Assembly: GCA_041659265.1 (NCBI GenBank)
Contig: JBAZYP010000007.1
Coordinates: 9,928 to 73,927, forward strand
Direction: 5' to 3'
From: Candidatus Pacearchaeota archaeon
Lineage (GTDB): Archaea > Nanobdellota > Nanobdellia > Pacearchaeales > GW2011-AR1
Length of the DNA stretch: 64,000 nucleotides
Part shown: piece after piece, positions 38,240 to 63,870 of the stretch
Numbering within the stretch: position 1 is the first letter of the stretch
How the letters are laid out: every line of letters starts with the position of its first letter
The notes under the pieces: model-generated
Databases searched by the model: none
What the model saw: the letters and a program-made list of their open reading frames with translations, nothing else
Told to the model about the DNA's origin: nothing
Program-made: the position numbers and the translations under genes

Positions 38240-39136
38240 ATGGAAATTCTAAAAGAAATTTTTGATAAAAAAATAGTAAGTATACTCGAAGTTTTTGTTA
38301 ATGAACCAAATAGAACTTTTACTATTAGTGAAATCTCTAAACTTGCTGAAGTTAATATAACTGCAACTTTCAGAATAATAAGAAAACTAGTTACAAAAAG
38401 ATTTATAAAAATAAAATTTATTGGAAAAATGAAATTCTACCAGCTTGAAAAAAACGATAATATCTCCCAATTATTAAATTTTTTAGATAAAAATTCAAAA
38501 CCCTTGGAATCTTTTGTTGAAGAAAGTTCAAAAATTGAAAATGTTGAAATTATTATCTTAGATAATAAAACAAAAGAAAGTGCAAAATTCTTTTTTATAG
38601 GAGAAGAAATAAATAATGAAAAAATAAAAAAAATTTCAGATAAAATTAAAGATAAATTTGATATTAACATAGATTTTGTTATACTAAATAAAGTGCAATA
38701 TGAATCATTAAAAAATTTTGGAAATTATTCCTTAGAAAAAAATATTATCTGGGAAAAAGATAATAATAAACTTCTTATTTCAAAAAAAGAAAAATCAATA
38801 CCAGATGAAATCTATCCGGCGATATTTACAATAGATAAAGATGGTATGTATATATCTATGAATAAAAATGCTGCAAAAAGGATAGGTGGAAAACCAGAAG
38901 ATTTTATAGGTAAAAAATTAATTGATGTTTTTCCTAAAGAAATAGTTAAAAAACAAATGGACTATATTTCAACTCTTATTAAAACCGGAAAAATTATTAA
39001 AACAATTGATGAAATTCCTTTAGGAAATAATAAAATTCATCTTCTTGAAACAACCTTAAAACCCATTAAAAATAGTGAAGGCAAAATTGAAGCAATTTTA
39101 GGTATTTCGCATGATATTTCTGAAGAATATAATTAA
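38240..39136 (+). CDS. Winged-HTH plus PAS domain transcriptional regulator (putative)
   Basis: N-terminus: FTISEISKLAEVNITATFRIIRKLVTKRFIKIKFIGKMKFYQL (wHTH-like). C-terminal PAS: AIFTIDKDGMYISMNKNAAKRIGGKPEDFIGKKLIDVFP...GKIEAILGISHDISE. Confidence 0.65.
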   Translation: MEILKEIFDKKIVSILEVFVNEPNRTFTISEISKLAEVNITATFRIIRKLVTKRFIKIKFIGKMKFYQLEKNDNISQLLNFLDKNSKPLESFVEESSKIENVEIIILDNKTKESAKFFFIGEEINNEKIKKISDKIKDKFDINIDFVILNKVQYESLKNFGNYSLEKNIIWEKDNNKLLISKKEKSIPDEIYPAIFTIDKDGMYISMNKNAAKRIGGKPEDFIGKKLIDVFPKEIVKKQMDYISTLIKTGKIIKTIDEIPLGNNKIHLLETTLKPIKNSEGKIEAILGISHDISEEYN

Positions 39137-51100: not shown

Positions 51101-53775
51101 AAATGAATCCATTGAGGAGTTGTTGTTGTATTTATTGGAACTGTAAATGTAAATGCATCTGAATTAAATCTTACTCTCCATTGTGAAGTATCCACCTGAT
51201 CTGTTCCAATTTCAAATGCATAAGTAGATGCCCCGCTTGAATGAGATAAATATCTTTCAAAAGTAGTTTTATCAGTTTTTCTTAACCATAAACTTATAGT
51301 AAAATTATTTGTTAAAGCTAGTGTTGGTGAATTACCAAAATCTATTGATTTATTTGTTCCATCAAACCAATATGCTCCTTTTCTATCATAACCTCCAGTC
51401 AAATTAAATAAAACTCCATTAATTACTCTTCCATTATTTTTAAATGGAGAATAATCTTTTGTAAATGTAGAATTAGAACCTCCTTCAAAAGGAGCTACCA
51501 ATAATTCATAAGAACTGCCGTTTTTATTCCAAGTAATTATATTATTTACATTATCACCATCATCATCCAAAGAAGTTATTACTTTGCAAGTTAAATTCTC
51601 TTCAGTAGTATTCATCCCATATGTTGAATTAAGATTTAAATTTGTTATAACAGGAACTCTATTAATAGTATAAGTTATATTCAAATAAGGAGACCTGCTA
51701 TAATTAGTTGAATATTCTTTAGATGCAAAATAATCAGGATTAACATTACTAGCGGTTTCGGCAGTTGCTTTAAATACAAATGAAGCATTTTTATATCCAG
51801 AATTATATTCTTTCTTTATAATCTCTGTAACATTCCAACATTTCCAACCAGCTGTTGTTGAAGTTATATTTTGAGTTGTAGATAAATTACATAGAGTACT
51901 TGCAGTAAAACCAGTTCCACATGGCTGATTATTCCAAGTTATATTTTGTAAATAGCTTCCAGTTCCAGTAACTCCATTAACACTTCCTTCACTCCAATTA
52001 TGAATATAAACATGATGAACTTCAGCAGTTGTTGTAGTATCATCAGTATGTAAATACATACAAAGATAACTTTCATTGATTGTAGCTCCAGTTGGTACTG
52101 AAGTAATATTAAACATTATATATGTTCTAGCTCTTCTATCTGCATGCCTTCTTACCCATAAATCAGGAGATGTTCCATAATTAAAATCTTCATAACCCGC
52201 TCTATCATAAACCCAAGAATCACCAATTATATTTCCCTGAGTCCTATTTATTTTACTTACATTAATGCTAGGATCAACTACATAATCAAAATCTATATCT
52301 CCATTTAATATTTTTAAATCAAAAGTATCTTGAATTCCAGAAAGATTATTCAATAAAATCCTATACCAATTTTCATTACTAATTATACCAAAATCTGCTA
52401 ATTTTTGATTACTATCTTTTTCATAAACTTCAATAATTGGATTTGAATTATTATTTTTAGCATAAATTGTTATATCATTTATTGAAGATAAATTCCTTTC
52501 AAAAGTAACTCTTAAAAAATTACTTTCAGGAATTGTTTTATAAATTCCATCTTTTTCTTTGACATAAGAATAAACTTCTTCAATTAAATCCTTTGTTAAA
52601 TTAAGATGTTCGGCTTTAATTATATAAATAATATCAAAAGTCTGTTCTGATAAATGAGGTACAATCCATTCAATAACATCAATGAATCCATCATTATTAT
52701 TATCATGAGTTTCAAAATCTAAATATCTCCCTTCTTCTTTCCAAAAAATCCTTATATCTCCTTTATTTTTTATTTTCCTTTCAATTTCAGTATAAGCTGT
52801 TACATTTTCATATTTTACATCATCTTGTGAAGAAATAATTACTTCTTTTCCAGATTTTGATAAACTCTTCTCAATTTTTTTAGGCCCTTCAGTAAAATAA
52901 ACTAGTTCAATTTCTCCTTGAATAGATTCAACAGTTATAGATTTAGATTTCTTTCTTGAAAATAAATTTAATAATAAATCAAGATAAGAACTTTCAGTTT
53001 CAATGTAATCGATCTTTTGACTCTGATTATTATTTATCTTATATAAAGTTATATTCTTGCTGCCGTAAGGAACATCGATCTTTACTTTCTTAGTTTCTTT
53101 ATCAAAATTTAATTTTTCAAAATGTCTAACTGATTTTCCAACAATTATTTTTTCTTTTTCATTAATATTATCCGGAATTATTTCTTCATCAAAGTATTCT
53201 GTCTTATTTAAAACATCAAATTCATAATGGAATTTTTTCCCTCCAATTAAAATTTCAACAATAAATTTTCCAATTTCATCTAAAATAAAAATGGCATTGT
53301 CATTACTTCCTTTCCTAGTATAATTTTTTGTTGGCGTAAATACTTTAATTTCATAATCAACTTTACCAATTAAATTTATTCTTAATTCTTCACCAATAAA
53401 ATATTCTTGAGATATACTAAAAATATTAGTTTTATCATCTTGATTAATTTCAGTTTTAATTACTTCAAAAAAATATTTTGTTTTTTGCCCGCCCCTTGTT
53501 AATTCTATTGTATAATTTCCGATTTCTTCAGGATTAAATGTAAATGCATCATTACTTCCAACTCTAACAAAAGAAACAGTAGGAGTTATTATTTTTGCAT
53601 CATATTCCCCTTTACCGATAAAACTAATTCTAACTTCTTCACCCAACTTATATTGATTTCTTGTTAAAACATCTGCATCAGTTGTTTTTGGTAAAACAAT
53701 AATAAGAAACAAAGCAATAATTAAAAATACAATTAAGCCTGCTCCACCTATTTTTATCATACTCTTCTTATTCAT
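39196..53775 (-). CDS. Giant (4859 aa) surface protein. It has an N-terminal TM anchor, two DNRLRE-like domains, a LamG/ConA-like domain, four ~400-550 aa super-repeats, about ten tandem ~95 aa Ig-like repeats and a CARDB-like domain.
   Basis: A single uninterrupted 14.6 kb ORF. LamG-like: KGAYWFDGTNKSIDFG...LDELRIFNSTLS (about 50885..51440). DNRLRE-like: RTYIMFNITSVPTGATINESYL...ITWNNQP (about 51700..52250) and LRSLLKFDEIFGY... (about 43330..43800). CARDB-like: DLITINATIYNLGNIGIDNVVVRFYNGD...EINETNN (about 39790..40130). Confidence 0.9.
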   Translation of the reverse strand: MNKKSMIKIGGAGLIVFLIIALFLIIVLPKTTDADVLTRNQYKLGEEVRISFIGKGEYDAKIITPTVSFVRVGSNDAFTFNPEEIGNYTIELTRGGQKTKYFFEVIKTEINQDDKTNIFSISQEYFIGEELRINLIGKVDYEIKVFTPTKNYTRKGSNDNAIFILDEIGKFIVEILIGGKKFHYEFDVLNKTEYFDEEIIPDNINEKEKIIVGKSVRHFEKLNFDKETKKVKIDVPYGSKNITLYKINNNQSQKIDYIETESSYLDLLLNLFSRKKSKSITVESIQGEIELVYFTEGPKKIEKSLSKSGKEVIISSQDDVKYENVTAYTEIERKIKNKGDIRIFWKEEGRYLDFETHDNNNDGFIDVIEWIVPHLSEQTFDIIYIIKAEHLNLTKDLIEEVYSYVKEKDGIYKTIPESNFLRVTFERNLSSINDITIYAKNNNSNPIIEVYEKDSNQKLADFGIISNENWYRILLNNLSGIQDTFDLKILNGDIDFDYVVDPSINVSKINRTQGNIIGDSWVYDRAGYEDFNYGTSPDLWVRRHADRRARTYIMFNITSVPTGATINESYLCMYLHTDDTTTTAEVHHVYIHNWSEGSVNGVTGTGSYLQNITWNNQPCGTGFTASTLCNLSTTQNITSTTAGWKCWNVTEIIKKEYNSGYKNASFVFKATAETASNVNPDYFASKEYSTNYSRSPYLNITYTINRVPVITNLNLNSTYGMNTTEENLTCKVITSLDDDGDNVNNIITWNKNGSSYELLVAPFEGGSNSTFTKDYSPFKNNGRVINGVLFNLTGGYDRKGAYWFDGTNKSIDFGNSPTLALTNNFTISLWLRKTDKTTFERYLSHSSGASTYAFEIGTDQVDTSQWRVRFNSDAFTFTVPINTTTTPQWIHLAISYNKNLASQNLKFYENGRLIGTGDFNLDLIGHGNLRTNRINVANGYMNSYLDELRIFNSTLSLQQIKSIYMNKSNVIVSQELMQNQRWYCIATPNDGYIDGLNVTSNYLIVGAYPPTSINIINPRNNSYTTNPFNLTAITDQIGSCQYSTNSNFTFGSGIDFTGGQGTRNHTTIMNLSDGIYTYFIKCNNSDNIRNDDTNQNLTTFIIDSIPPLLRINSPWNITNDVTPNFSIAIYENVSKLWYSLNGGVNTTICNNCTPGNYTRFLFLNEGNFLLRVYGNDSPVGNIGLNISNFTINMNKHFSDSYNDNSSLGSLFSVNWSYGNISFYGEPLASNEKVFVESSGMIVIEAENYSKIIIRGAKSWNFTNTYSGYSGTGALQALPNTGTNNNAGYTTTSPEVQFKADFATSGTYYVWVRGYAISGNDDSIHAGINNTAYTSADRIANFAAGTYSWHRDTLDPQVATLYIGAGKNQTINFWMREDGFVIDKILLTTDNLYTPTGVGPTESPLKTVSGNFTSYYANTSSTIFEISNVSWTGTGVNQNNSLSIYVSADGGLSWNNATNGEGIPFMNGGTSLVYRAFFSSNGLSNLSLFDINISWTSEATPPPQVIINNPVNGLTLADVTPTLNVTINTTAKDLYYTTNNGLTNVTICTYCSGTITKFLYLKEGNFKVDVFSTNNANNISRNTTNFSVNMNFNYYDDFNDNSSLITLENVNWGIGNVSYTGRALSELAQNIQHGSAVISSGSYQTDIEITPISLNHSFLVFNYRVNDADPGDFLVYGNLTNSTTIHFESSSGQTENTFIYIEWYVAEFNDEVNVQRGTITQAVSTNTTIQPVTIGNSFPLISMMNDGTVYGTDDITRARLIGPDRLETYAVGNPADILAWQVIDYSGADVQNGSFTMTGTSQVIGLNRSVDTTKSFVIGTWAATNTGVGILEADNGGVLINFVNSTAINIERRAINTHNLHVSWYVVEFTAGESVRSGVAHFNSGDSEKNIPISSVNMNRTIVMISGNQRGGESSFTTSDNPGTMWVTGVITNTTNLRLERALTTSDADISWYVIEFGTTTSGNFVSYPINTTSSIAEILNVDWNESGTDANNLISVEISADYGIHYSPVIKGQGIINITSGNSLVYRVTFTTNSSNTISLSDMNISWTNTTSPPPNITINYPLQGTTIADVTPILNVSINGNANTLWYSVNNGSTNTTICTSCSGTFTKFLYLAEGGQNVRVYASNNLNEQSKAISNYIIDMNYNYYDSFSDNSSLITLNDVEWSIGSVNYTNPSQAEIKKVYKGSTFIPTGALSVDELIPAEINISSSFLTFSYSSNEVDPGDFLVYGNITNSTTIHFQSSTDATENNPVYIEWYIAEFYSGVRVRRGTFLQNAGTINTAINPALDLANSFPLASWMDDGATYGTTDNCRVTITESNSLETYFAANPNDVVAWQAIEYSGANVQNGVFSLTGVNDTIPLDMPVDLNKTFVIATFASSGDTTAGNGGLIVNLTDSSNIFFQRKVATGTLYVSWYAVEFNGGELVQSGVAHFNGPQNTLDIPLRNIDLSKSLVILPGNQKAGSSNYTANDNIGIMWARANLTNSTNLNLRREVTGEILDIPWYVVDFSRGTTANFTAYPINTTATITQIKNVSWLESGSDENNTISVQISPNNGNIWYNISNGGDITNMQSGRSLLYRVIYNSFTPSRTISLLDMNITWSNVITPPPQIVINSPLSGTTLADVTPTLNITLNDSASNLWYNINNGANISLCSYCSGTITKFLYLKEGNFNVSVFANNSVGNLSSNRTSFIINMNRNYYDSFNDNSSLYYFNNNLNWSIGNVSFTSDKTFNLLDSFETTNNWRFFGTGTWSINSYELLQTSNNEAFAVYLPFNVSTNYDYNISVTGYDPDDDWTGILFRYRNATDYYRCSFRLQTTDNAIVRVQGGVATNLVTTTTNYVQNQWNNYSVSVKNGNITCYLNGVAVLSAIDSTWKDGGIGIYENAHANTRYDNFDFYYIPLFANFTSYPINTTDPIKAISNITWNEFGTNQNNNISVNISVNGGSTWYSVNRGGILTGFTQGYNLLYRVFFNTNSSDNIIYLLDMNISWKAPPSVRIVYPLNTTYSSLVNSMNYTISGSSTPLDSCWYSLNMGETNTSITCGVNITGLISIEGNNTWFVYANDSEGSVGSASVTFGIDSAAPLITFINQTDIEDIIVNDSYPLQEGQNLSVRVNVSDNNLDRVWMVVWNTIKGGSQKLRSTLTYLGGILWIGIIPTDHSWNAFYYYTIYANDSAGFVSEYDNNFSILEMNISLEMDPLTVYANESVFISGYLNFTNGTYLPNHPFNLWVNGRVYLFSNVTANGSYNNFLNFSEDSSIEFDKGSYYNIVNDGENLTLASGNSSGNYSKIFDAGAIVKWTSIDWQFKGTSCTRTVSFQDGDVNSYSSTIDNYISSGSSSNNFGSSSELMLDTSPSVLRSLLKFDEIFGYGGGKIPYNSTISQANITLQVYVSGDSPNVYEILENWTELDSTYDDRLTGISWGSLGCAGSPSRSINLESTIDTSTTGAKTFDVSNVIRRWNNHTINNYGVVIHPLASNGVSIRSSDYITQSERPILRASFSSSECTGATFYVRTSNDNLTWGSWIEINKGENFEGIIGRFLQYKVELGAVDSTIKPYVSDIKINFTAVVTDENGYYNYNFTAPPSLGNYPIIVNSSYRTIFANNSLMLIVQVGLSPIVRLITPTHNTWFNYTPVDLIYNVSDPNLDLKNTSLIINGVINDTNQTELINGDYHTYTVNFSNGVYNWTVEAKDIANNTGTDSSRLFYIDLIDPNISIIYPPAYYSYNLNRINFSFNATDNLDSVLSCSIYLNDLLIAPAIISAGNGNATNVSYSGLSPGEYYWNVTCTDESMRKYSTSLFYFNVSDTPPEVYLVSPNQSTIDDDGNLTFTYNVTDNIEVAGGCFLLLNNIADIFNQSAVANGESNDLFKFNMNEGFYNWTVNCSDGNLTGQASPQRSLIIDLFSPNISLDSPIDGGIYNKSSFNFNFSVNDSIDNQLNCSIIMGGEIVDSGFSANSGILTNRPIENLTDGLKFWNVTCFDDALHESNSSTWNFTIAEPPIINLTTPNASSFTGSSVTLSYIPYDNTGISSCRLYVDNVFNQSNSSEIFIGNNNNFDIAGLSDGLHTWYINCSDYFNINGLSETRIFYLDNFPPNITLLQPSGEVHAANITFNFSVVDIVDSLLTCNLSVDSTLRAYNINATNGTITTWTVSGISEGNHTWYVNCSDDAGNSAGSSIFNFTKIIEPYVNLTWPANNYWFNSTNFNLSYLPQDDEGISRSYLFINDIFNKSNNTPVIVNQENNFSVNGLSDGFYNWTVNITDVRGLNATDIVRNFYIDTIPPLIEMYSPYQFELIITNNVSFNYNISDNLDSEIDCNLTVDGSFEFRGNLTSALNYSHYALLRDGNHSWSLICSDEARNINYSQIRNFSIIAPPNVTLDFPINNYRTNKTSFNFSYTPMDPMGFLNCSIFIDGVYNSTQGSINPNYQNNFSVIGMSEGRHNWTVECIDIDYNIYTPNYTNFTIDYSPPTIALIYPLNDSSLYSPNQVSFRWNASDRFDSNLTCNLTIDGINNKTNIPVLSGELYEENVSGLSIGKHYWNVSCWDHDIISNFNISLTWNFNLSKPDFSINSSDIGFSNPNPSENDLITINATIYNLGNIGIDNVVVRFYNGDPSSGGVQIGNDQNISISAYGMNITNVTWNANLGTNLIVVEVDPPIATNGFYREINETNNNASKIITVGAWEIIYGNVLDNSIFRLADNSSSEVVKWNADMFNNGNLFVSDYESIIDWPSLTAIWKATNGSNATNDFIDLDILFNMSTFVDSINETYTVNSIPKNITNFQIFGKTISDVPIVNSTNTTNFITGILWDSSKDSGNLQFDRTDKEDLVFVTKINRNKAGKYGIYDYEMRIPAKLRELKTTDTRSVAFYIELA
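40140..43000 (-). repeat. About ten tandem ~285-nt (about 95 aa) Ig-like coding repeats inside the giant gene
   Basis: Repeat starts such as PPEVYLVSPN, FSPNISLDSP, PPIINLTTPN, FPPNITLLQP, PYVNLTWP, PPLIEMYSP, PPNVTLDFP and PPTIALIYP. Each unit carries an (H/Y).W.V.C.D motif. Confidence 0.75.
44830..50465 (-). repeat. Four tandem coding super-repeats inside the giant gene, with boundaries near 50465, 49275, 47625, 45970 and 44830
   Basis: The junction motif ..(L/F)D(M/I)NI(S/T)W(T/S/K)..PP.. recurs, followed by ..ADVTPTLN..., ..C..C.G...KFLYL.EG.. and ..NYYD.F.DNSSL.. The two full copies are about 1650 nt each. Confidence 0.8.
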
Positions 53776-53813
53776 AATAAATCACGTTTTATTAAATTTA
53801 AGAAAGAACTTTC

Positions 53814-54020
53814 CTATCTTTCTTTTTCTCCTTTTTTTCTTAAAGAGTTTGATTTTTCAATAATTCCTTTATTTTCATTTACGATATTATTTCCATTAGA
53901 AAGATTTTTTATTGCATGTTCAACAACATGACTTCTATTCCTAAATTCTCCAGAATCAATTAGACCATCTATAAGTGATATAGTTTCTTTATCAAATGTA
54001 AAACTTGCCCTCTCTTTCAA
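53814..54020 (-). CDS. Ribbon-helix-helix (CopG/NikR-like) DNA-binding protein, directly upstream of the giant gene
   Basis: 68 aa with a TTG start. ASFTFDKETISLIDGLIDSGEFRNRSHVVEHAIKNL fits the RHH strand-helix-helix consensus. It ends 38 nt before the giant gene's ATG. Confidence 0.6.
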   Translation of the reverse strand: MKERASFTFDKETISLIDGLIDSGEFRNRSHVVEHAIKNLSNGNNIVNENKGIIEKSNSLRKKGEKER

Positions 54021-54080
54021 TTTGTTATCCTCTTAATCTTTAATCCCTATATTAATCTTTTGATTTTATTTCTTAAACTC

Positions 54081-54253
54081 ATAAATTTTGAATTGACTTC
54101 AAAATTTATAGCAAACTTATCTTGCTTAGATTTAAAAAATCTAAACAATTGCCTAATATTAAATGTATAATATCTATATATTAGAAAAAGACCTATTTAA
54201 ATATTACGAAATATTATTTAGTATTATTTAGTATTACGAAATAATACTAAATA
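54081..54253. promoter_or_regulatory. Three perfect palindromes in the region upstream of the RHH + giant gene pair
   Basis: ATAAATTTTGAA-ttgac-TTCAAAATTTAT (54081..54109), TTAGATTT-aaa-AAATCTAA (54126..54144) and TATTTAGTATTA-cgaaa-TAATACTAAATA (54225..54253). There are also direct repeats tatttagtat x2 and attacgaaata x2. Confidence 0.4.
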
Positions 54254-54259
54254 ATCAAA

Positions 54260-54769
54260 TTAAACATTATATTTTTTATCTTCACCTAATCTGGATAGAA
54301 GTTCATTAATCTCTTTTTTCAATTCAATATTATTTAGTTCACGGTTTAATGCATATTTATTAATAATTTCTAATTCTTTTTTTTGATGCGCCATTTCCTC
54401 TTCAAATTGTTTTCTTTGAGTTATATCCCGGATAAACGCAATTGCACCAATAAACAATTGAGAATCAAATATAGGATATTGTCTTGAAGAAAAAAATCTT
54501 TTATTACCATTTATTATGATTTCATAATCATATGTAGCACTTTCCCCTAGTTGATTTTTTTCATAAGAATCATTAAATAAATTATTCATAAATTCCGGCA
54601 TAATTTCAGAATATATTTTACCTAAAAAATATTCAGGAGAAAAAAGTAATAGATCTTGCATAGATTTAGAAATATGACAAAAAATAAATCTTTTATTATT
54701 ATCAAAAACAAAAATAAGTTCCTCACAATATTTTAATAAATCTCCATTTAAAATATTTTTAATATCCAT
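54260..54769 (-). CDS. Single-PAS-domain protein with a conserved C-terminal coiled-coil motif; no output domain
   Basis: 169 aa. PAS core with ..GAIAFIRDITQRKQFEEE. The C-terminal motif ALNRELNNIELKKEINELLSRLGEDKKYNV is shared with the 1039 aa PAS protein. Confidence 0.7.
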   Translation of the reverse strand: MDIKNILNGDLLKYCEELIFVFDNNKRFIFCHISKSMQDLLLFSPEYFLGKIYSEIMPEFMNNLFNDSYEKNQLGESATYDYEIIINGNKRFFSSRQYPIFDSQLFIGAIAFIRDITQRKQFEEEMAHQKKELEIINKYALNRELNNIELKKEINELLSRLGEDKKYNV

Positions 54770-54823
54770 AATATAGAATTAAAAAGACACCTCGACTATA
54801 AAAATTTTATTATTCTAAAATAA

Positions 54824-57800
54824 TTATTTTTGTTTAAGTCTAATCTTTAGTTCATAAAAATGTAATAATATGGATAAAATCCCCGTTAGTATCAATGATA
54901 AAAATCCAATATAAAATAATTTTCCTTGAATCAAATTAGCGACCCCTTCACCAATCCCTTTTTTAATAATAAATGTTTCTTGAGCTTCAGCAGGTTCAGT
55001 CTGTCCTAAATAATCCAATTTTACAAAGATTTTATATTCTCCTTCGTTTAATTTTGAAGTATCAAATTCTTTAATAAATTCAGTCTGAGTTTCAACAGGA
55101 ACTATTTCTTCCTCTTCAATATAGAGATTATCATTCATATCAGTTATTTTATAATAAAGATTGGCATTTACTTTTCCAGGTAAAGCTACATTAATTAAAC
55201 CAATTACTCCAGATATTTTTTTTCCTATATTTATCTCTTTCTTTAATAATCTTAAAGAAATATCAAATAAAGTTACTTTTTTTGGTTTAATTTTTTTTGG
55301 AGGTATTATCGAATTGGTATTATTTACTATTTCATTTTTTTTAGATGGAATAGACAAAATTTCCTGATTTCCACTCCCCCCATAAGAAATAATATTTTCT
55401 TCAGATATATCCATTTGATAAAAAACCTCTTTATTTCCACTAAGATTAATTATAAAATTAGCAGATTCATTCATAAAATTTATTTCAATGGAATAATTAG
55501 ATAAATAATTTATAGTTTCCGAATTTTCCATTATATACTCGCTTGCAATAAAATAAATTCTGCCATCATTATCCGTAGTTTTTAAGGAGATTAGATTGCC
55601 TTCATTATCTTTCAAACTTACATTAGCATTTGGAATTGGAATTCCTGAAGTATTATTTAAATAAACATTAATATAAAATGAATAATTTAAAAATGCATTG
55701 CTGGTACTGTCCCAAAAAATATTTTCTATTGAAGTATTAATAAAATTCCATACGCCATTATCAATACTATCAGATACATAAAAACCATATTGGGAATAAT
55801 TTCCAATATTCGAATCTTTTATAATAAAATTATTATTTGATCCAGTTACAAATATAGAATAAGCAGATTCTTCTATAATTTCAAAAATTAATTTTTCAAA
55901 AATAGAATTTGCGTTGGATAAATAAAAATTTATACCTTTTGAATCATTACCACTAATATAAATCCTTTCTCCATAAAAATAATTTGTACTTCCAAGGCAA
56001 GATGATAAATAAATTCCATTTGCATTATTTCCCCTCTGAGTTATATTATTTTCAGAAAAATTATTATTTATAGAATTTTCAATTACTAATAGGCTAGAAT
56101 AATCTACATCTGAAAATAAATTATTTGTTTGAAAAAAGTTATAACTAGAATCTGTATTAATATATAATCCATAAGGAGTTTCATTAAATATAAAAATTGA
56201 ATTATTTAAAATATTTGAATAATAGATCTCAGAAGTATAAACACATTTGCCATCAAGAGAATAACAACTTATATTATTATTAGTAAAATTAACATAAGAG
56301 GAAGCAGATAATGAAGCCCCATATGATTGAAACCCTATGCTTGTAATAGAATTTGAATCAAGTTTTGTATAATCAGATTCTGAAGTTAAATAAATAGAAT
56401 AAGAATTAGGATGAAAAATAAAGAAATAATTTCCAGAAATATTTGATTCTGTTAAATATTCTAAATAAAATCCATAAGAACTATCATTATTAGAATAAAA
56501 ACTATTATTCACTACTGAAAAATTTGATCCTATTGAAACATATAATCCAGTATTATCTAATCCAAAATTAGTTAGATTATTATTTATAATATTTCCGTTT
56601 AAAGAATCTACTAAATAAATAGAATCAAGATAAGCAATTATATTATTATCTCTTATGGTAAAATTTTGAACTTGATTAAAGCAGATACCACTAGAATCTC
56701 CTCCAGAAATAAATATCGAGTTATTAATAAAATTATTTCCAAAAGAATTTTGCATAAGAATTGAACAAGTTGCCGAATCAAAATTATTTAAATTTAATTG
56801 ATTAGATTCAAAATTAGAATTATTAGTATAATTTACAATATAAAGATCATATGAATCCAATCCATAAGAAGTAATATTATTTTCAGTTAAATTAATAAAG
56901 TTTGAAGAATCTATATAAATTAAATAACTATAATTTCCAAAAGATAAAATTTGATTTTCATTCATATCAATAAGTTCGGATGATTGAATAAGTATTGGAA
57001 AAGAACTATTCCCTGAAGCATTAAAAAAATTGTTAGTTATATATGAATTTGTTATAGAATTTAAATAACCTCCATAATTATTTGTTGCATAAGTTGTTAT
57101 ATTATTATTGCTTAAATTTATCTCGGTATAATCTGCAAAAAATCCATAAGAATCTTCAGAATAAACCTTGATATCATTATTTAAAACAAGATTATTTATC
57201 CCTCCCTCTATATAAAGATTATAGCTGCTAGTTCCTGAAATATTTAAAGTATTATTTATTATTTGAGAATTAGATGAATCTGATAAAAATATATTACGTG
57301 TAGGAGTTATATCATCATTAGCCTCATAAATAATGCAATTAAGTATTCTTGTATTTGAATAACTAGAATAAATTCCATAACCAGGAGATTCCAAAGAATG
57401 CCCGATCTTATGATTATTACAATCTAAAGTTATATTATCTGCAGAAATAGTAAAACAAGTTTCAGTAGATTCAAAATCCCTGTCTAAAACATAAATCCCA
57501 TTTATAGTATTTAAGTCACCACATTCAGAAATATCAGGATCAATTTTAGCTTGAGTTTCGCCCTCACTAATTAAAAAATCAAAGCTATTAGAATCATATT
57601 TAGGTATTTCAAATCTAACAAGGATTGCCAAAGGTTTTTCCACTTCATTTGATTCATCAAACATTTTTACAACAAGACCGCTTATAAAACTAGATTTTAA
57701 TTCGCCATCTCCTTCACTTTCACCATATCCATTTCCTTCATCAGTTCCTATTCCTTCACCTTCACTCTCAATTTCATCTTCACTATCTTTATTACCCTCT

Positions 57801-58858
57801 TTTTCATTAATAACCTTATTTCCTTCATTATTAATTTCTTCAACATTCTCTTTTTCAGTTGATTTAATATTATCCTCCTTTCCATTAATACCCTCTTTTA
57901 AATTAGAATTCTCTTCACTTGATTCGTCAATTATTTCATCTTCATTTAAAATTTCATTAGATCCAGAACTATCTTCCTCTTCATTTAAAATTTCATTATA
58001 TTCAGAAATATTTTTATCATCTATAGATAAATTACTAATTTCATCAGAATCATCATAATCATTATTAGTGTTATTTTCTTCAATATTTTGATTATGAGAT
58101 TCATTTAAACTTTCAAAGGTTAGATTTCCTTCATTATATTGATTAGTCTCAACAATTTCTTCAGATTTATTATAATCTTTTTCTTTAATCAAATCTTCTT
58201 TAAGTTCTAAATTTTTTAATTCTACAAAATTATAAAAACTCCTTTTTTTAATTTTATTATTAATAATTTCTAATTTATTTCTTTTAACATCGCGAATATT
58301 ATTACCTTCGCTTTTTAAAATATTCTTTCTAAAAATTTTATTATCTTCATTAATAGAGAATAATTCTTTTTCTTGATTTAATAATCCCTTTATTTTTTCT
58401 TCACTGATTTCTATATCTTGCAAATTTTCATAAGTTAAGGTATAATCCTTTGAATATAATATTTCAATATCTTTAACATCATCAGGCTTTTCAAATTTAA
58501 GCTGAATATTTGGATTTTTTAATTCTAATTCATTCTTTCCTGTTAAATCAATTTGAAATATGGCTTCACAAACTTTCCAACCATCATCATTTTCAGGATT
58601 TTTCCAATGACAATTTATTTTTGGTTCAGTAGAGATAATAACCCCTGATGAATTTGAAAATTTGTATCCATTTAAATTAACTTCACTACCTTCACTTATC
58701 TCAGGCATTTCTATCTCACTTTTAGCAGATAAAATATCTTCAGTATTTTTTATTGAAAATAAAGTCAAATTTGGAACAGAAGAAATAAAAAATAATAAGA
58801 AAAAAATAAGAAAAAAACTCGTTATAAAAAATATTATTTTTTTTCTAGCTTCAGTCAT
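54824..58858 (-). CDS. Large (1344 aa) surface protein with an N-terminal TM helix, an acidic low-complexity region, a long right-handed parallel beta-helix (PbH1/NosD-like) repeat array and a C-terminal anchor module
   Basis: Repeating ..N.I.....GI.L..S..N.I.NN.I.. units run over about 600 aa. An E/D/N/S-rich stretch covers about residues 225-400. The C-terminal TM helix is LFYIGFLSLILTGILSILL. Confidence 0.85.
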   Translation of the reverse strand: MTEARKKIIFFITSFFLIFFLLFFISSVPNLTLFSIKNTEDILSAKSEIEMPEISEGSEVNLNGYKFSNSSGVIISTEPKINCHWKNPENDDGWKVCEAIFQIDLTGKNELELKNPNIQLKFEKPDDVKDIEILYSKDYTLTYENLQDIEISEEKIKGLLNQEKELFSINEDNKIFRKNILKSEGNNIRDVKRNKLEIINNKIKKRSFYNFVELKNLELKEDLIKEKDYNKSEEIVETNQYNEGNLTFESLNESHNQNIEENNTNNDYDDSDEISNLSIDDKNISEYNEILNEEEDSSGSNEILNEDEIIDESSEENSNLKEGINGKEDNIKSTEKENVEEINNEGNKVINEKEGNKDSEDEIESEGEGIGTDEGNGYGESEGDGELKSSFISGLVVKMFDESNEVEKPLAILVRFEIPKYDSNSFDFLISEGETQAKIDPDISECGDLNTINGIYVLDRDFESTETCFTISADNITLDCNNHKIGHSLESPGYGIYSSYSNTRILNCIIYEANDDITPTRNIFLSDSSNSQIINNTLNISGTSSYNLYIEGGINNLVLNNDIKVYSEDSYGFFADYTEINLSNNNITTYATNNYGGYLNSITNSYITNNFFNASGNSSFPILIQSSELIDMNENQILSFGNYSYLIYIDSSNFINLTENNITSYGLDSYDLYIVNYTNNSNFESNQLNLNNFDSATCSILMQNSFGNNFINNSIFISGGDSSGICFNQVQNFTIRDNNIIAYLDSIYLVDSLNGNIINNNLTNFGLDNTGLYVSIGSNFSVVNNSFYSNNDSSYGFYLEYLTESNISGNYFFIFHPNSYSIYLTSESDYTKLDSNSITSIGFQSYGASLSASSYVNFTNNNISCYSLDGKCVYTSEIYYSNILNNSIFIFNETPYGLYINTDSSYNFFQTNNLFSDVDYSSLLVIENSINNNFSENNITQRGNNANGIYLSSCLGSTNYFYGERIYISGNDSKGINFYLSNANSIFEKLIFEIIEESAYSIFVTGSNNNFIIKDSNIGNYSQYGFYVSDSIDNGVWNFINTSIENIFWDSTSNAFLNYSFYINVYLNNTSGIPIPNANVSLKDNEGNLISLKTTDNDGRIYFIASEYIMENSETINYLSNYSIEINFMNESANFIINLSGNKEVFYQMDISEENIISYGGSGNQEILSIPSKKNEIVNNTNSIIPPKKIKPKKVTLFDISLRLLKKEINIGKKISGVIGLINVALPGKVNANLYYKITDMNDNLYIEEEEIVPVETQTEFIKEFDTSKLNEGEYKIFVKLDYLGQTEPAEAQETFIIKKGIGEGVANLIQGKLFYIGFLSLILTGILSILLHFYELKIRLKQK

Positions 58859-59064
58859 TATATATTTTTCATAGGCAAATCAACTGGCTGATATAGTTTT
58901 GCCATTCCAACCTTCCTTACAATCACTTTTTCTCCACCCTCTAATCTAGCTAAAATTATTCTTACAGCACCCCGGGATAATCCACTCTCATTAACTATTT
59001 CAGTAATAGTTAATCCTCCATTATTTGTTCTATTTAATATATCTAAAATTAATTTATCATCCAT
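58858..59064 (-). CDS. Small winged-helix DNA-binding protein, translationally coupled to the 1344 aa gene
   Basis: 68 aa. LTITEIVNESGLSRGAVRIILARLEGGEKVIVRKVGMAKLY looks like HTH plus wing. The TAATG stop/start overlap is at 58858, and AGGAG lies upstream of its ATG. Confidence 0.6.
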   Translation of the reverse strand: MDDKLILDILNRTNNGGLTITEIVNESGLSRGAVRIILARLEGGEKVIVRKVGMAKLYQPVDLPMKNI

Positions 59065-59088: not shown

Positions 59089-59970
59089 TTACTTTGAGTC
59101 ATTTTTCTCATTTTTTTTTGTAAAAAAATTTATTAAAAAATAGAATAAAATGACAAAAAATACAAAAAGAACTATGCTAATTAATCCTGAATAAGAAGAT
59201 TTACCAATGATTTCAAAACTCTTTTCAGATATTGCGGTCTGATTTTTACCATAATAAATTGATGAAGTTATTTTATACTCTCCAGGTTCTAACCTTAAAA
59301 AATCAAAATTTTTTATTATTGAATCTTCTGTATAAACTACCTTATCATCAACACCAGTATAAACCTCACTTCCACTGGAATTAATTATAGAATAAACAAT
59401 ATTAATTCTTGATGGCCCCTCACCAAAATTAACAAATCTTATATATATTGTTAAATCTTTTGATTCAACAATTTTTTCTTCAGATAGTCCAACCTCAATA
59501 TCAAATAATTCCTTATAATTTGTTTCACCATTAAAATTTTCAGAATATTCTTTTAAATAGATAATTGCTTTATCATTATCAAAATTAATATAATTTATTA
59601 CAATATCCAGTTTACCATCCTTATTTAAATCAATAATTTTTGTTTCATTAAGTTTCAAACTACTTTTTTCATTATTAAATAAATAATAATCAATATTTTC
59701 AGAAGTTATTTTTTCTAAAATTAAAAAATATTTTTTATCGCCTATTAAAATCCTAAACGCCTCGTTATTACTATAACTTGAAGTATATCCCTTTGATAAT
59801 ACATTTGGACTGATTTCATTTATTTTTTTAATATTATCAAATATTGGATCTTTTTCTTCATCTATAGTTGAAGTTATTGTATCGCTAGTTGGAAAAGCAG
59901 AGATATTTGCTAAATATAATAAGATCATAATTCCTAAAAATCCAATTTTCAACCTAGTTAACTCTTGCAT
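59089..59970 (-). CDS. Surface protein with a signal peptide, a Ca-binding-like DLNKDGKLD loop and the shared C-terminal anchor module
   Basis: 293 aa. The C-terminal region ...RLEPGEYKITSSIYYGKNQTAISEKSFEIIGK...LISIVLFVFFVILFYFLINFF resembles the C-termini of the 1344, 1509 and 223 aa proteins. Confidence 0.65.
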   Translation of the reverse strand: MQELTRLKIGFLGIMILLYLANISAFPTSDTITSTIDEEKDPIFDNIKKINEISPNVLSKGYTSSYSNNEAFRILIGDKKYFLILEKITSENIDYYLFNNEKSSLKLNETKIIDLNKDGKLDIVINYINFDNDKAIIYLKEYSENFNGETNYKELFDIEVGLSEEKIVESKDLTIYIRFVNFGEGPSRINIVYSIINSSGSEVYTGVDDKVVYTEDSIIKNFDFLRLEPGEYKITSSIYYGKNQTAISEKSFEIIGKSSYSGLISIVLFVFFVILFYFLINFFTKKNEKNDSK

Positions 59971-59984
59971 ATCTTAATCCCCTT

Positions 59985-60036
59985 TTAACAATATTGTTAA
60001 CAACATCTAAAACAATATCATTAACATTATTGATCT
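59985..60036. promoter_or_regulatory. Perfect 16-bp palindrome TTAACAATATTGTTAA plus two degenerate copies in the divergent region between the surface-protein operon and the Lrp/AsnC gene
   Basis: 59985..60000 is perfect. 60009..60024 (AAAACAATATCATTAA) and 60021..60036 (TTAACATTATTGATCT) each match 12 of 16 positions. The first lies 15-30 nt upstream of the ATG at 59970. Confidence 0.4.
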
Positions 60037-60177
60037 TCAAACAAATATTTTTAAGGATATAAAGCTAAGGTTTATAAATTAAAATATATTAAATATATTA
60101 GTTGAATAAATAAACTCAGATTATTTAAACTATAAAAAATTATTATAATAATGTTTTATTTATAAACAAAAAAGAGA

Positions 60178-60744
60178 ATGAAAATTACAAAAAATGAAAA
60201 AAAGATATTAAAATTACTCCTATTAGATGCAAAAATCTCAGATATTGCTCTAGCCAAGGAATTAAAAATATCAAGTCAAGCTGTAGGAAAAATAAGAAAA
60301 AAATTAGAATCAACTATTATTGAATCTTATTCTATAAATCTAAACTATTCTAAATTAGGGATAAATCTTTTTGCAATAACACATTCAAAACTGACTCCAG
60401 AAGGACTTGATAAAGGAGAATTAGAAATTGAAGAAAAGCTTCTTGAAGAACCCAATATTATCCAAATTAATCGACTTCCAAGTGGAAATTCTACCCATAT
60501 TATACTATATGGATTTAAAGATATGGTTGAACTTGATGATTTCTTTCATTCACCTAAGAAAAAACATGAACTCCATAAATATATTGAAACTAAAGATATT
60601 TTTACATTTTCAAATCATAGTTTAATAAAGAATAATCCAAGACAATTATTTGAAAAAGTTATAGAAGAAACGAGTTGCGAAAATATTGAAACAACTTCTT
60701 ATTTTAAAGAATTAGAAAATTTCAAGAAAAAAATTAAAGAATAA
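60178..60744 (+). CDS. Lrp/AsnC-family transcriptional regulator
   Basis: N-terminal HTH_AsnC pattern NEKKILKLLLLDAKISDIALAKELKISSQAVGKIRKKLE..II, followed by an alpha/beta effector-like domain. Confidence 0.75.
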   Translation: MKITKNEKKILKLLLLDAKISDIALAKELKISSQAVGKIRKKLESTIIESYSINLNYSKLGINLFAITHSKLTPEGLDKGELEIEEKLLEEPNIIQINRLPSGNSTHIILYGFKDMVELDDFFHSPKKKHELHKYIETKDIFTFSNHSLIKNNPRQLFEKVIEETSCENIETTSYFKELENFKKKIKE

Positions 60745-60750
60745 AAATAA

Positions 60751-63700: not shown

Positions 63701-63870
63701 GAAATATTTCAGAAAGAAAAAATATTGAAAAAGAAATTATTATGAAAAGTCAAGAACTTGAAAAATTTAATCAATTTGCAGTTGGAAGAGAAATGAAAAT
63801 GATTGAATTAAAAAAAGAGATTAATAATTTATTAAATAAATTAAATGAAAAACCAAAATACGAAGTATAA
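60751..63870 (+). CDS. Multi-PAS (eight PAS/PAC units) sensor protein without a recognisable kinase or other output domain
   Basis: Eight PAC-end motifs were read directly: REITKRK, IDITEKK, TDITEKK, QDINDKK, EDITEKI, TDITEKI, RDISERK and RNISERK. It ends with AVGREMKMIELKKEINNLLNKLNEKPKYEV. No HisKA H-box or HATPase N/G boxes were seen. Confidence 0.85.
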   Translation: MEEIDYKAIIDSTYDCEIVRDKNLNLIYVSPSFERIFGYKNIDYLSGKIKTETIIYKEDIDKINKYFELLKKFGTIEDSEIRGITKDNKIIWLSLSCQPIKDSKENNIGMRCSLREITKRKINEENLKISLEKLALSQKASNSGAWDWDMISNKLSWTDEFYNLFGINRKDYPESFETWKNLLHPEDKERTIKILNESIINKTHLKNYYRIIKPNKEIIWIEALGNTYYKDNKAIRMSGICIDITEKKNIEEKLKESEERFKILSESSINGIYLTDPKGDCIYANPAWLEMAGIKFNEALGKGWINALHPEDKKTISENWYKTVESNGKWAFEYRFITPSGKIHWIYGRAKAIFDLNNQLIGFIGNNTDITEKKRIELELKEEKEKFKKIFETSPLVLGLSTIEDGKYIEVNEKFLEVFDLKKEEVIGKTSKELNIFSNYEDRNKIIESLKEKNIEKGIEIKINTKKGPVLYQFYISKTFYQEKEHLLVIGQDINDKKEFETKIKESENFLNQIIENLPLMIFVKDAKELRFEILNKKGEEIFGQKSENIIGKNDYDFFPKDQAEFFIKKDMETINSKNLIDIPEEPIKSPMGERILHTKKIPLFDENNVPNHLLGISEDITEKINLNKQIIESEQKFKSLYYSMNEGVALHELVFDDKNNPIDYIILDVNPKFEEITNIKREDIINKKSIEIYKTKEPPYFNVYKDVSLNGKSTNFESYFEPMKKHFSISAFSPSKNKFATIFTDITEKIEKEKRYLELFNNINDAVFIHDLDGYFLEANEVSIKRLGYSKEELLKMNLKNIDLPIFQEKIKERVNNLVNNGSNIFESVHVTKSGKEIPVEINTKIIDYLGKKAILSISRDISERKKNEDILKKSSQEWETTFNSMQDLISIHDKDYRIIKVNKAFADAFNLKPEEIIGMKCYELVHSKTSPLPFCPHKKAMEEGSPQKLEYYDEHLKLYLEVGTNPIYNENKEFIGTVHVVRNISERKNIEKEIIMKSQELEKFNQFAVGREMKMIELKKEINNLLNKLNEKPKYEV

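What the first reader, a model, noticed from the sequence alone, without database searches (positions are those of the whole stretch)
53814..59064. Every giant surface-protein gene is preceded by a tiny DNA-binding gene
Three independent cases occur in one window. (1) A 68 aa RHH gene (53814..54020) ends 38 nt before the 4859 aa gene. (2) A 68 aa winged-helix gene (58858..59064) overlaps the start of the 1344 aa gene in a TAATG junction. (3) An RHH-like module is fused in frame to the 1509 aa gene (16533..16652). The repetition, with two different DNA-binding folds and one fusion, argues for a functional rule. This could be dedicated autoregulation or on/off control of each costly giant gene. 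It could also be a tethering or chaperoning role during co-transcriptional, co-translational membrane insertion of very long transcripts. I am not aware of this being described as a system.
Basis: inference. Interest (0 to 1): 0.7.

Follow-up and report, generated by a model that had tools for sequence, protein, structure and literature searches.

The report
Tiny DNA-binders lead giant surface genes
In this small-genome archaeon and its relatives, genes for giant cell-surface proteins are usually headed by, or fused to, a tiny DNA-binding protein whose predicted binding sites sit on the shared promoter, which suggests built-in self-limiting control of very costly genes.

Summary
The window comes from a 27% GC DPANN archaeon of the Woesearchaeota/Pacearchaeota group. 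All three giant genes with a signal peptide or membrane anchor (4859, 1344 and 1509 aa) carry a roughly 45-68 aa DNA-binding module at their head.

Each case is conserved in other species:
- **RHH-A:** the tight subfamily overlaps the start of orthologous giants of 1400 to over 4350 aa.
- **Mini-wHTH:** every hit in 1.7 Mb of related DNA precedes a 1167-1966 aa surface protein, or a fusion leading to one.
- **RHH-B:** this module exists as a free 44-60 aa gene, mostly overlapping a secreted-protein gene in an ATGA junction. It also exists fused in front of a cleavable-looking signal peptide on 950-1650 aa proteins.

Each family has its own repeated motif array at the TATA box of its own promoter.

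Genes of at least 1000 aa carry such a module in 38 of 53 cases, against 97 of 1046 shorter genes. The sample was collected through the regulators, so it is biased. The rule is not universal.

The best reading is dedicated, co-translated autorepressors. I found no prior description in the literature I searched.

The parts
53814..54020 (-). RHH-A gene, 68 aa, TTG start. A ParD/CdrS-like ribbon-helix-helix protein and leader gene of the giant-gene operon.
   Evidence: ORF confirmed. It has 22 homologues whose first 40 residues are almost invariant, several with a precomputed Pfam RHH_1 hit or named Arc/MetJ-type RHH by JGI. Weak matches to ParD and CdrS.
54192..54250 (-). Predicted RHH-A operator array. 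Four repeats of about 11 nt of type (G)TAATAyT. The last one overlaps the TATA-like box (GTAATATTTAAATAGG).
   Evidence: Sequence read. The same array with the last unit on the TATA box is present in 11 orthologous loci. GTAWTAYT occurs 1-5 times per promoter (both strands, mean 3.9), and at least twice in 11 of 12 promoters against 4 of 1033 control upstream regions.
39196..53775 (-). Giant surface protein, 4859 aa. Has an N-terminal signal or anchor, laminin-G, Big_13, CARDB and GH115_C-like domains, and 5.3 sequons per 100 aa.
   Evidence: Orthologues (N-terminus MNKKSMAKIGAIG..LGEKIK..KIITPS) always follow an RHH-A subfamily gene.
58858..59064 (-). Mini-wHTH gene, 68 aa. Overlaps the ATG of the 1344 aa gene in a TAATG junction.
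   Evidence: Pfam HTH_24 above cut-off. Homologues in L015, L020, L026, L030, L034, L094 and L172-L175 all sit directly upstream of giants.
54824..58858 (-). Surface protein, 1344 aa. Has an N-terminal anchor, beta-helix repeats and a C-terminal membrane helix.
59089..59970 (-). 293 aa membrane protein. First gene of the wHTH operon in this organism. Absent from the L015 and L020 operons.
59985..60065 (-). Promoter of the wHTH operon. Contains a TATA-like GCTTTATATCC followed by ATGTTAATGATATTGTT and TTGTTAACAATATTGTT repeats between TATA and ATG.
   Evidence: ATATTG repeats lie at the same place in L015 and L020. Palindrome GCrTTAAyGC occurs 2-3 times in L172, L173 and L175. The motif was defined after the fact on 6 promoters.
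16518..16652 (-). RHH-B module (residues 1-45), fused in frame to the 1509 aa protein.
   Evidence: Conserved at about 70% identity in 28 of 51 homologues whose ectodomains are 24-62% identical over their best local alignments. It also exists as a free 44-60 aa protein. Weak profile matches to the RHH proteins SvtR, ParG and RepB.
16455..16517 (-). Signal-peptide-like segment (KNISLFLFGFFMIMMIGGILA) with a small residue at -1 and an aliphatic residue at -3.
   Evidence: By inspection of the junctions printed, all 28 fused homologues have A or S at -1. Orthologous ectodomains without the module start with an ordinary signal peptide that ends at the same position. The protein also has a C-terminal membrane helix.
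12123..16454 (-). Ectodomain, C-terminal membrane helix and tail of the 1509 aa surface protein.
16672..16730 (-). Predicted RHH-B operators. Two copies of TATTTCTAAAGAAATA plus a third half-site abut the BRE/TATA (GATTTATAAA), which lies about 22-28 nt before the ATG.
   Evidence: Three or more half-sites TAYHTMYW are present in the 130 nt upstream of 55 of 68 module genes, against 89 of 1033 controls. The median TATA position is -31.
54260..54769 (-). 169 aa PAS protein between the two operons. Part of the conserved island; role unknown.

Best explanation
Three unrelated families of very small DNA-binding proteins act as dedicated, promoter-proximal autoregulators of operons that encode giant secreted or anchored surface proteins in Woesearchaeota/Pacearchaeota-type DPANN archaea. 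The families are RHH-A, RHH-B and a mini winged-helix protein.

The small gene is made first from the same transcript. It overlaps the giant gene (ATGA, TAATG or -8 junctions), or it is fused in frame ahead of the giant's signal peptide. Regulator and giant protein are therefore expected in roughly fixed proportion (inferred from the gene overlaps and fusions).

The regulator then binds an array of family-specific repeats that abuts or overlaps the BRE/TATA (RHH-A, RHH-B) or lies between TATA and the start codon (wHTH). This should limit further initiation, most likely by excluding TBP/TFB or RNA polymerase.

Shown here:
- gene order, overlaps and fusions;
- conservation across species;
- enrichment in front of giants;
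- family-specific promoter repeats.

Inferred:
- DNA binding;
- repression rather than activation;
- the purpose. The likely purpose is to keep a 4-15 kb gene from monopolising polymerases, ribosomes and the Sec machinery of a very small cell, or to give sharp on/off control of host-contact proteins.
For: **Conserved pairs**
- The RHH-A subfamily precedes giants of 2316, 2319, over 4350, over 2471, over 1996, 2348, over 1605, over 3334 and over 1406 aa, with overlaps of -4 to -29 nt.
- In 1.7 Mb of related DNA, every mini-wHTH hit (14 distinct hit sequences in 14 loci) precedes one of two things. Ten precede a 1167-1966 aa signal-bearing protein directly. The others precede a nuclease-like-plus-RHH-B ORF.
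- Of the RHH-B loci, 72 hold complete ORFs. About 50 are free genes of 44-100 aa and 18 are fused proteins of 950-1650 aa.
- Free RHH-B genes are followed, mostly by a 4-nt overlap, by signal-bearing proteins in 24 of 41 cases. The background is 24% (odds ratio 4.5, p = 4e-6).

**Interchange at one position**
The same ectodomain family is found with a fused RHH-B, with a split RHH-B, or with a mini-wHTH.

**Enrichment**
38 of 53 genes of 1000 aa or more have a module, against 97 of 1046 genes of 100-999 aa (Fisher odds ratio 25).

**Operators**
Searches show the motifs. Each family carries its own motif and not the others'.

**Fold**
- wHTH is above the Pfam cut-off.
- RHH-A homologues carry precomputed RHH_1 hits.
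- RHH-B shows weak matches to SvtR (E = 0.015), ParG, RepB, RelB and CcdA.
- Natural tandem duplicates of RHH-B model as beta-alpha-alpha twice.

**Precedent**
The RHH protein SvtR represses its own gene and a tail-fibre gene. RHH proteins spread from upstream sites onto BRE/TATA (PMC5569661).
Against: - No binding, transcript or protein data exist.
- The RHH fold of RHH-B is not established. The single-module model is one long helix, the tandem model has pLDDT 60, and Foldseek found nothing significant. All sequence matches are below curated cut-offs.
- The enrichment sample was gathered through the regulators themselves and contains orthologues, so the p-value overstates independence.
- Among giants not used for retrieval, only about 8 of 14 signal-bearing ones have a module.
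- RHH-B sites lie mostly upstream of TATA, a position that in archaea can also mean activation.
- In the window the RHH-A gene is 38 nt from the giant gene, and a TATA-like stretch lies in that gap. An internal promoter is therefore possible.
Confidence: 0.6

Rival explanations
1. Secretion-coupled feedback (a special form of the main reading, for the fused genes). RHH-B is the N-terminal part of an unusually long cleavable signal peptide. Signal peptidase releases the ectodomain and leaves an RHH-plus-helix stub in the membrane. The stub's later release or decay reports how much giant protein has been exported and resets the promoter.
For: By inspection of the junctions printed, all 28 fused homologues have A or S at -1 right before the conserved start of the ectodomain. 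Orthologues without the module have a plain signal peptide ending at the same point. The window protein has a separate C-terminal membrane helix, the usual type I layout after cleavage. The promoter places the transcript start just before the module's ATG, so the module is translated. A viral precedent exists: the 98-residue signal peptide of MMTV Rem acts in the nucleus after cleavage (PMC5371415).
Against: Cleavage is predicted only by eye. No signal-peptide predictor or proteomics was available. No release protease was identified. Split forms work without any membrane step, so the fusion may be a tolerated variant without extra function.
Confidence: 0.2
2. The small proteins are not transcription factors. 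They are export or assembly helpers that hold the N-terminus of a very long nascent chain, time its targeting, or tether gene, ribosome and membrane together. This is the reader's second idea, comparable in role to the extended signal peptide region of bacterial autotransporters.
For: RHH-B is fused directly to signal peptides. The link is to secreted proteins rather than to large size alone. The RHH-B fold was not confirmed.
Against: The wHTH clearly matches DNA-binding families. Each family has its own conserved repeat array on its own promoter. The wider RHH-A family and some free RHH-B genes head operons for cytoplasmic proteins such as ATPases and AlbA_2-like proteins. Natural tandem duplicates fit a dimeric RHH.
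Confidence: 0.1
3. The fused proteins are ToxR/CadC-like one-component sensors. An uncleaved membrane helix links a cytoplasmic DNA-binding domain to a huge extracellular sensor of host contact.
For: The order is the same: N-terminal DNA-binding module, one hydrophobic helix, then a large outside domain. In cells this small, membrane-bound factors can reach the DNA. CadC does so in E. coli (PMC6320335, abstract listed).
Against: A signal-peptidase-type site is present in all fused members. Plain signal peptides occupy the same position in orthologues. Split versions have no physical link between module and ectodomain. A separate C-terminal anchor is present.
Confidence: 0.07
4. Coincidence. 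Small RHH and HTH genes are very common in archaeal genomes, so three of them next to giants in one window means nothing.
For: A fourth small RHH-like gene heads a methylase. Most members of the wider RHH-A family head ordinary genes.
Against: The pairs are conserved in many species and families substitute at the same position. 28% of module-led genes are 1000 aa or more, against 1.6% of other genes. All mini-wHTH hits are linked to giants.
Confidence: 0.03

Closest known systems
SvtR of Sulfolobus rudivirus SIRV1, and the RHH repressors CopG, Arc and MetJ in general
   Same: All are RHH proteins of about 45-56 aa. They repress their own promoter, and SvtR also represses the gene of a large structural (tail-fibre) protein. 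They bind repeated sites and spread toward BRE/TATA (PMC5569661). SvtR is the best solved-structure match of the RHH-B profile (E = 0.015).
   Different: The similarity is below any significance cut-off. The modules here are cellular, not viral. They are co-translated with their target or fused to it, and they recur in front of many paralogous giant surface genes.
CdrS-ftsZ2 operon of Halobacteria
   Same: A small RHH gene lies immediately upstream of, and is co-transcribed with, the gene it is functionally tied to (PMC7439475, listed). CdrS is the best NCBIfam match of RHH-A.
   Different: The match scores 19.8 bits against a cut-off of 100. The downstream partner here is a giant surface protein, not a tubulin homologue. 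No operator array overlapping the TATA box was compared for CdrS.
Type II toxin-antitoxin operons with an RHH antitoxin (ParD, RelB, CcdA)
   Same: A small RHH gene comes first, overlaps the next gene, and autorepresses through operator repeats. RHH-A aligns weakly with ParD, and single RHH-B members align weakly with RelB and CcdA.
   Different: The downstream gene is a 1000-4859 aa secreted protein, not a roughly 100 aa toxin. The small protein has no toxin-binding tail.
ToxR/CadC/TcpP membrane-bound one-component regulators
   Same: The domain order of the fused form is the same: DNA-binding domain, one membrane helix, then an outside domain.
   Different: The DNA-binding fold differs (RHH-like, not OmpR-type winged helix). 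The helix looks like a cleavable signal peptide. The outside part is a giant adhesin-like protein. Split versions exist.
MMTV Rem/Env signal peptide (98 residues, p14)
   Same: A long signal peptide whose N-terminal extension has a regulatory role of its own after signal peptidase cleavage (PMC5371415).
   Different: It is eukaryotic and viral. Extraction uses p97. None of this was tested here.

Membership tests
Ribbon-helix-helix (MetJ/Arc/CopG) superfamily: RHH-A (53814..54020) | Profile match to an RHH family above its curated threshold | tested here: inconclusive
   The window protein itself matches only ParD_antitoxin at E = 0.073, 13.9 bits against a cut-off of 21. Six close homologues carry a precomputed PF01402 RHH_1 hit, and JGI names five others Arc/MetJ-type RHH. 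The profile against PDB finds ParD1 at E = 0.078 and NikR at 0.73.
Ribbon-helix-helix superfamily: RHH-A and RHH-B | Repeated operator sites (tandem or inverted) in the regulated, usually own, promoter | tested here: met
   RHH-A: 3-6 TAWTAYT units in 12 of 12 promoters, against 1% of controls with 3 or more. RHH-B: 3 or more half-sites in 55 of 68 promoters, against 8.6% of controls. The motifs are family-specific. Binding itself was not shown.
Ribbon-helix-helix superfamily: RHH-B (16518..16652) | Beta-strand, helix, helix topology of about 45 residues forming an intertwined dimer | tested here: inconclusive
   The single-module model has an extended segment at 1-11 and one helix at 12-44, pLDDT 80. 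The natural tandem duplicate models as E5-11, H14-26, H28-42, then E63-69 and a helix, but pLDDT is 60. Foldseek found no hit below E = 0.1. Sequence evidence: DUF6364 in 25 of 26 members (best 5e-5), RepB-RCR_reg in 11 of 26, SvtR at E = 0.015, ParG at E = 0.42. There is no profile relation to RHH-A.
Ribbon-helix-helix superfamily | Sequence-specific DNA binding through the two-stranded sheet | not testable with these tools
   This needs EMSA, footprinting or a complex structure. In RHH-B the alternating strand residues K5, T7 and S9, and S30 at the start of the second predicted helix, are invariant.
Winged helix-turn-helix (HTH_24/MarR-like): 58858..59064 | Profile match above the curated threshold | tested here: met
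   HTH_24 at 26.7 bits against a cut-off of 21.9, and HTH_IclR at 24.1 against 22. Homologues in L173 and L175 have weak or faint precomputed MarR_2, HTH_IclR and HTH_23 hits.
Type II toxin-antitoxin module | A small toxin gene of a known family immediately downstream of the RHH gene | tested here: not met
   The downstream genes are giant secreted proteins with Ig-like, laminin-G and beta-helix domains.
ToxR-like membrane-bound transcription regulators | OmpR-type winged-helix domain, a permanent single membrane anchor, and a periplasmic sensor | tested here: not met
   No OmpR-type match was found. The hydrophobic segment ends in a signal-peptidase-type site and equals a plain signal peptide in orthologues. 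Whether cleavage happens could not be tested.
Sec-type cleavable signal peptide (fused RHH-B proteins) | A positive n-region, a hydrophobic h-region of about 15-20 residues, small residues at -1 and -3, and cleavage by signal peptidase I | tested here: inconclusive
   The sequence features are present in all 28 fused homologues by inspection and by homology to plain signal peptides. No predictor or cleavage data were available. The n-region is about 45 residues longer than usual.

The most novel reading that the evidence does not exclude
RHH-B is a transcription factor built into the N-terminal extension of a cleavable Sec signal peptide. Each export event would leave one membrane-held RHH stub. 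The nascent RHH, and later the stub, would feed back on the promoter of its own gene. Because the DNA-contact residues and the operator half-site are the same across more than 60 loci, it might also act on all paralogous giant surface genes in the cell. That would give the cell a shared, export-coupled budget, or a mutual-exclusion switch, for giant surface proteins. To my knowledge and in the searches run here, no cellular signal peptide has been reported to carry a DNA-binding regulator.
Probability: 0.2. Interest if true: 0.88.

Novelty: new variant of a known kind. Interest (0 to 1): 0.72.

Why it matters
Giant surface proteins are thought to mediate attachment of DPANN archaea to their hosts, yet nothing is known about how they are controlled (giant SPEARE-type proteins are discussed in PMC11001535).

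This work gives a concrete, testable regulatory unit. It comprises three families of 45-70 residue regulators, their predicted operators, and their target genes, all conserved across many uncultured species.

It also shows convergent recruitment. Unrelated DNA-binding folds occupy the same slot in front of homologous giant genes. This argues that very long secreted-protein genes have a particular need for promoter-proximal, co-translated control.

The fusion of a DNA-binding-like module ahead of a signal peptide is an architecture I could not find described. The operator motifs could be used to find the regulon in metagenomes. The small proteins should be easy to make for binding assays even though the organisms are uncultured.

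Tried and rejected
- **Word-based homologue search with the wHTH** found only itself. Homologues appeared only when I looked upstream of other giants.
- **An HMM of the RHH-A family** hits nothing else in the window. The 1509 aa N-terminus is therefore a different family. Profile-profile comparison of the two RHH families found no relation.
- **Structure of RHH-B:** the monomer model gave one long helix. The tandem natural duplicate gave the expected topology at low confidence. Foldseek against PDB was uninformative.
- **A strict regular expression for the RHH-B palindrome** (TTCYHDRGAA) caught only 25% of promoters. A half-site description was needed.
- **A spaced pattern for RHH-A repeats** found no match in the window because the spacing was written wrongly. 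The direct read and unit counts were used instead.
- **The nuclease-like domain** next to some modules has no Pfam or PDB match.
- **Literature searches.** Five searches for a prior description of small regulators in front of giant archaeal genes, or of RHH-signal-peptide fusions, found none. Two further searches looked up the precedents. The archaeal dark-matter review does not mention it.
- **Readings considered and rejected:** the toxin-antitoxin reading, the ToxR-like reading and the chance reading. See the rival explanations.
Full report
**What the window is.** The window has 27% G+C. It encodes TFB, ribosomal proteins S3Ae and S8e-type, an Lsm protein and an intron-containing tRNA. The closest genomic relatives of its proteins are metagenome-assembled Woesearchaeota, Pacearchaeota and Nanoarchaeota. 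It is therefore a DPANN archaeon. The same contig is present in public assemblies (Logan SRR18595301, ENA ERZ27249449).

**Check of the observation.** All three cases are real.
- The 68 aa ORF 53814..54020 (-) has a TTG start with GAGG 8 nt upstream. It ends 38 nt before the 4859 aa ORF 39196..53775.
- The 68 aa ORF 58858..59064 (-) matches HTH_24 above Pfam's cut-off. It shares a TAATG junction with the 1344 aa ORF. It is the second gene of its operon, 24 nt behind a 293 aa membrane-protein gene.
- The 1509 aa ORF 12123..16652 starts with a 45-residue module followed by a hydrophobic segment.

These three are the only ORFs of 1000 aa or more with an N-terminal signal or anchor, and they have 3-5 sequons per 100 aa. 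The 1413 aa and 1039 aa ORFs have no signal or anchor, and neither has a tiny DNA-binding gene in front. The 1413 aa ORF has 0.4 sequons per 100 aa. A fourth small RHH-like gene (3752..3946) heads a DNA methylase.

**Case 1, RHH-A.** The protein has 22 homologues whose first 40 residues are nearly invariant (MKERASFTFDKET..FRNRSH.VE.A.K). On every contig long enough to judge, this tight subfamily overlaps the start of a giant gene by 4-29 nt. The giants are 2316, 2319, over 4350, over 2471, over 1996, 2348, over 1605, over 3334 and over 1406 aa. Their N-termini are orthologous to the window's 4859 aa protein.

A scan of one genome per species found relatives in 136 genomes, almost all DPANN. 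The wider family (MKQKLSITLDE..FRNKSHVVEYAVKKLL) also overlaps its downstream gene. Those partners are mostly ordinary: a roughly 290 aa membrane protein, a roughly 455 aa ATPase, and 590-800 aa secreted proteins. RHH-A is thus a general operon-leader family, and one orthologous branch of it is dedicated to a giant gene.

Upstream of all 12 giant-linked members lie three to six (G)TAATAyT-type units with a period of about 11 nt. The last unit lies on the TATA box (GTAATATTTATAAAG). In the window this is 54192..54250.

**Case 3, RHH-B.** Of 51 homologues of the 1509 aa protein, 28 carry the same N-terminal module (KKKVTLSI[DE]SKxYxDFQKYCEENAIMLSKKIE). The module is about 70% identical among them, while their ectodomains are 24-62% identical to the window's over the best local alignments and belong to several different types.

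After the module come lysines, a hydrophobic stretch, and then A or S at -1 in all 28, directly before the conserved start of the ectodomain (my reading of the junctions printed). Homologues without the module begin with an ordinary signal peptide that ends at the same place. The window protein also has a C-terminal membrane helix.

A metagenome scan found 196 loci encoding the module. Among 72 complete ORFs, lengths are bimodal. About 50 are free genes of 44-100 aa, and 18 are fused proteins of 950-1650 aa. A profile search of 1.84 billion representatives found 420 clusters. In the large proteins the match is always at the N-terminus.

Free modules are followed, mostly by an ATGA overlap, by proteins with a signal peptide in 24 of 41 cases, against 24% for other genes (p = 4e-6). 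These include proteins of 1121, 1148, 1260, 1721, 2098 and over 2666 aa. The same ectodomain type occurs both fused and split.

In the 130 nt upstream of module genes, 55 of 68 have three or more half-sites of type TAyhTmyw, often paired as TATACTTCTATAGAAGTATA. Only 89 of 1033 control genes do. The arrays abut a BRE/TATA at about -31. The window's copies are at 16694..16727.

**Case 2, mini-wHTH.** The word-based search found no relatives. Looking upstream of other giants revealed them. L015 has a 78 aa protein before a 1223 aa gene, and L020 has a 66 aa protein before an 1167 aa gene. Both are syntenic with the window, next to the RHH-A and giant pair.

Three homologues of the case-3 ectodomain lack RHH-B: P0037, P0047 and P0051. 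Each has a 65-68 aa gene overlapping its start by 4 nt. These genes align with the window's wHTH and with a further branch found before giants of 1426-1643 aa.

A profile of this family finds 14 distinct hit sequences in the 1.7 Mb collected. Ten directly precede a 1167-1966 aa signal-bearing protein. The others precede an ORF with a nuclease-like domain plus RHH-B. These loci were not collected through the wHTH, except L172-L175.

Between TATA and start codon these promoters carry two or three copies of GCrTTAAyGC, or ATATTG-type repeats. The window's are at 59985..60030. This motif rests on six promoters and was defined after the fact.

**Enrichment.** I took 1194 non-redundant ORFs of 100 aa or more with at least 250 nt of upstream sequence. 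One of the four small-family profiles lies upstream or fused for 38 of 53 genes of 1000 aa or more. The figure for shorter complete genes is 97 of 1046 (odds ratio 25). Seen from the regulator side, 28% of module-led genes are giants against 1.6% of the rest.

The sample was retrieved through RHH-A and RHH-B and contains orthologues. The direction from giant to module is therefore inflated. Among signal-bearing giants that were bystanders in the loci, about 8 of 14 have a module. L016, L109, L058 and L090 do not.

**Fold.**
- The wHTH assignment is solid.
- RHH-A is supported by precomputed RHH_1 hits in homologues and weak ParD, NikR and CdrS similarity.
- RHH-B is only probable. All its matches are below cut-offs: DUF6364 in 25 of 26 members, RepB-RCR_reg in 11, and SvtR (E = 0.015) and ParG as the best small solved structures.
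- Natural single-chain tandem duplicates of RHH-B exist. They model as strand-helix-helix twice, but at pLDDT 60.
- The monomer model and Foldseek were uninformative.
- The alternating strand residues K5, T7 and S9, and S30 at the start of the second predicted helix, are invariant. This is what an RHH DNA-reading strand would look like, but that is an inference.

**Mechanism.** The best-supported reading is dedicated autoregulation. The small gene is translated first from the same message. Its product then occupies repeats at or next to the core promoter.

Site positions favour repression. RHH-A sites lie on the TATA box, RHH-B sites abut BRE/TATA, and wHTH sites lie between TATA and the start codon. 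RHH proteins of archaeal viruses behave this way, including repression of a tail-fibre gene by SvtR (PMC5569661). Activation by the upstream RHH-B sites cannot be excluded.

Why giants in particular is inference. A promoter-proximal repressor is complete within seconds, while a 4-15 kb gene takes minutes to express. It can therefore cap the number of polymerases and ribosomes committed to one gene in a very small cell, or give sharp on/off control of host-contact proteins.

The fusion suggests an extra layer. If the signal peptide is cleaved, each export leaves an RHH stub in the membrane, which could couple repression to export. A long regulatory signal peptide is known from MMTV Rem (PMC5371415). 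This layer is untested, and I give it about 0.2.

**Comparison and novelty.** Small RHH or wHTH autorepressors at the head of operons are well known. Examples are CopG, RHH antitoxins, SvtR and CdrS-ftsZ2.

Four things appear to be new:
- the systematic link to giant secreted proteins in one archaeal lineage;
- the interchange of three unrelated small families at one position;
- the fused form placed ahead of a signal peptide;
- the family-specific operator motifs.

Five searches aimed at finding a prior description, and one review, gave none. I class it as a new variant of a known kind.

Noticed in passing
window 3752..8427: A 64 aa RHH-like gene (NikA-like/DUF6364) overlaps the start of an N6/N4 DNA methylase (3933..4595). 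Next to it are an AAA_21 ATPase (4582..6027), a GmrSD_N/DUF262 protein (6029..7063), an unassigned 381 aa ORF, and tRNA-Cys (8356..8427). This looks like a small restriction or defence island beside a tRNA gene.
   Followed up: partly
window 11210..11313 (-): A tRNA with an intron-sized insertion is found by Rfam (55.6 bits) but missed by ARAGORN.
   Followed up: no
P0076 and P0077 (representative proteins); L094 7707..; L153; L029; L022: Two extra architectures of the RHH-B module exist. One is a natural tandem duplicate in a single chain (103 and 108 aa). The other is a roughly 95-residue domain with a PD-(D/E)xK-like motif (CPDF[IV]M..E[VI]xVELE). That domain is either its own ORF between the small regulator and the giant gene, or it is fused N-terminally to RHH-B, the signal peptide and the giant. 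It has no Pfam or PDB match.
   Followed up: partly
window 35335..39136 and 59971..63870; L015 783..19758; L003; L007; L020: The whole island is syntenic across species. The order is: an Lrp-like 188 aa gene plus a large multi-PAS protein; mini-wHTH plus a roughly 1200 aa protein; RHH-A plus the giant; a regulator of 170-300 aa on the opposite strand (HTH-PAS in the window); and then two or three genes of about 245-340 aa, which in the window encode signal-bearing proteins without family matches.
   Followed up: partly
window 24081..28322 (-): A 1413 aa ORF with a TTG start, no signal peptide, no Pfam match and only 0.4 sequons per 100 aa. It lies behind two membrane-protein genes (497 and 643 aa). 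It is a large, probably cytoplasmic protein of unknown function, and the exception to the 'giant gene' pattern.
   Followed up: no
window 53776..53813: The 38-nt gap between RHH-A and the giant gene holds a short inverted repeat (GAAAGTTCTTTC) and a TATA-like TTTAATAAAA about 20 nt before the ATG. Orthologues have overlapping genes instead. This organism may therefore have gained an internal promoter or an attenuator.
   Followed up: no
window 16788..18188 (-); L172 1353..2690; L175 1050..2663: A BPL_N-like (glutamine-amidotransferase-like) gene of 445-537 aa is conserved immediately upstream of the small regulator and giant gene unit in three species, whichever regulator type is used.
   Followed up: no
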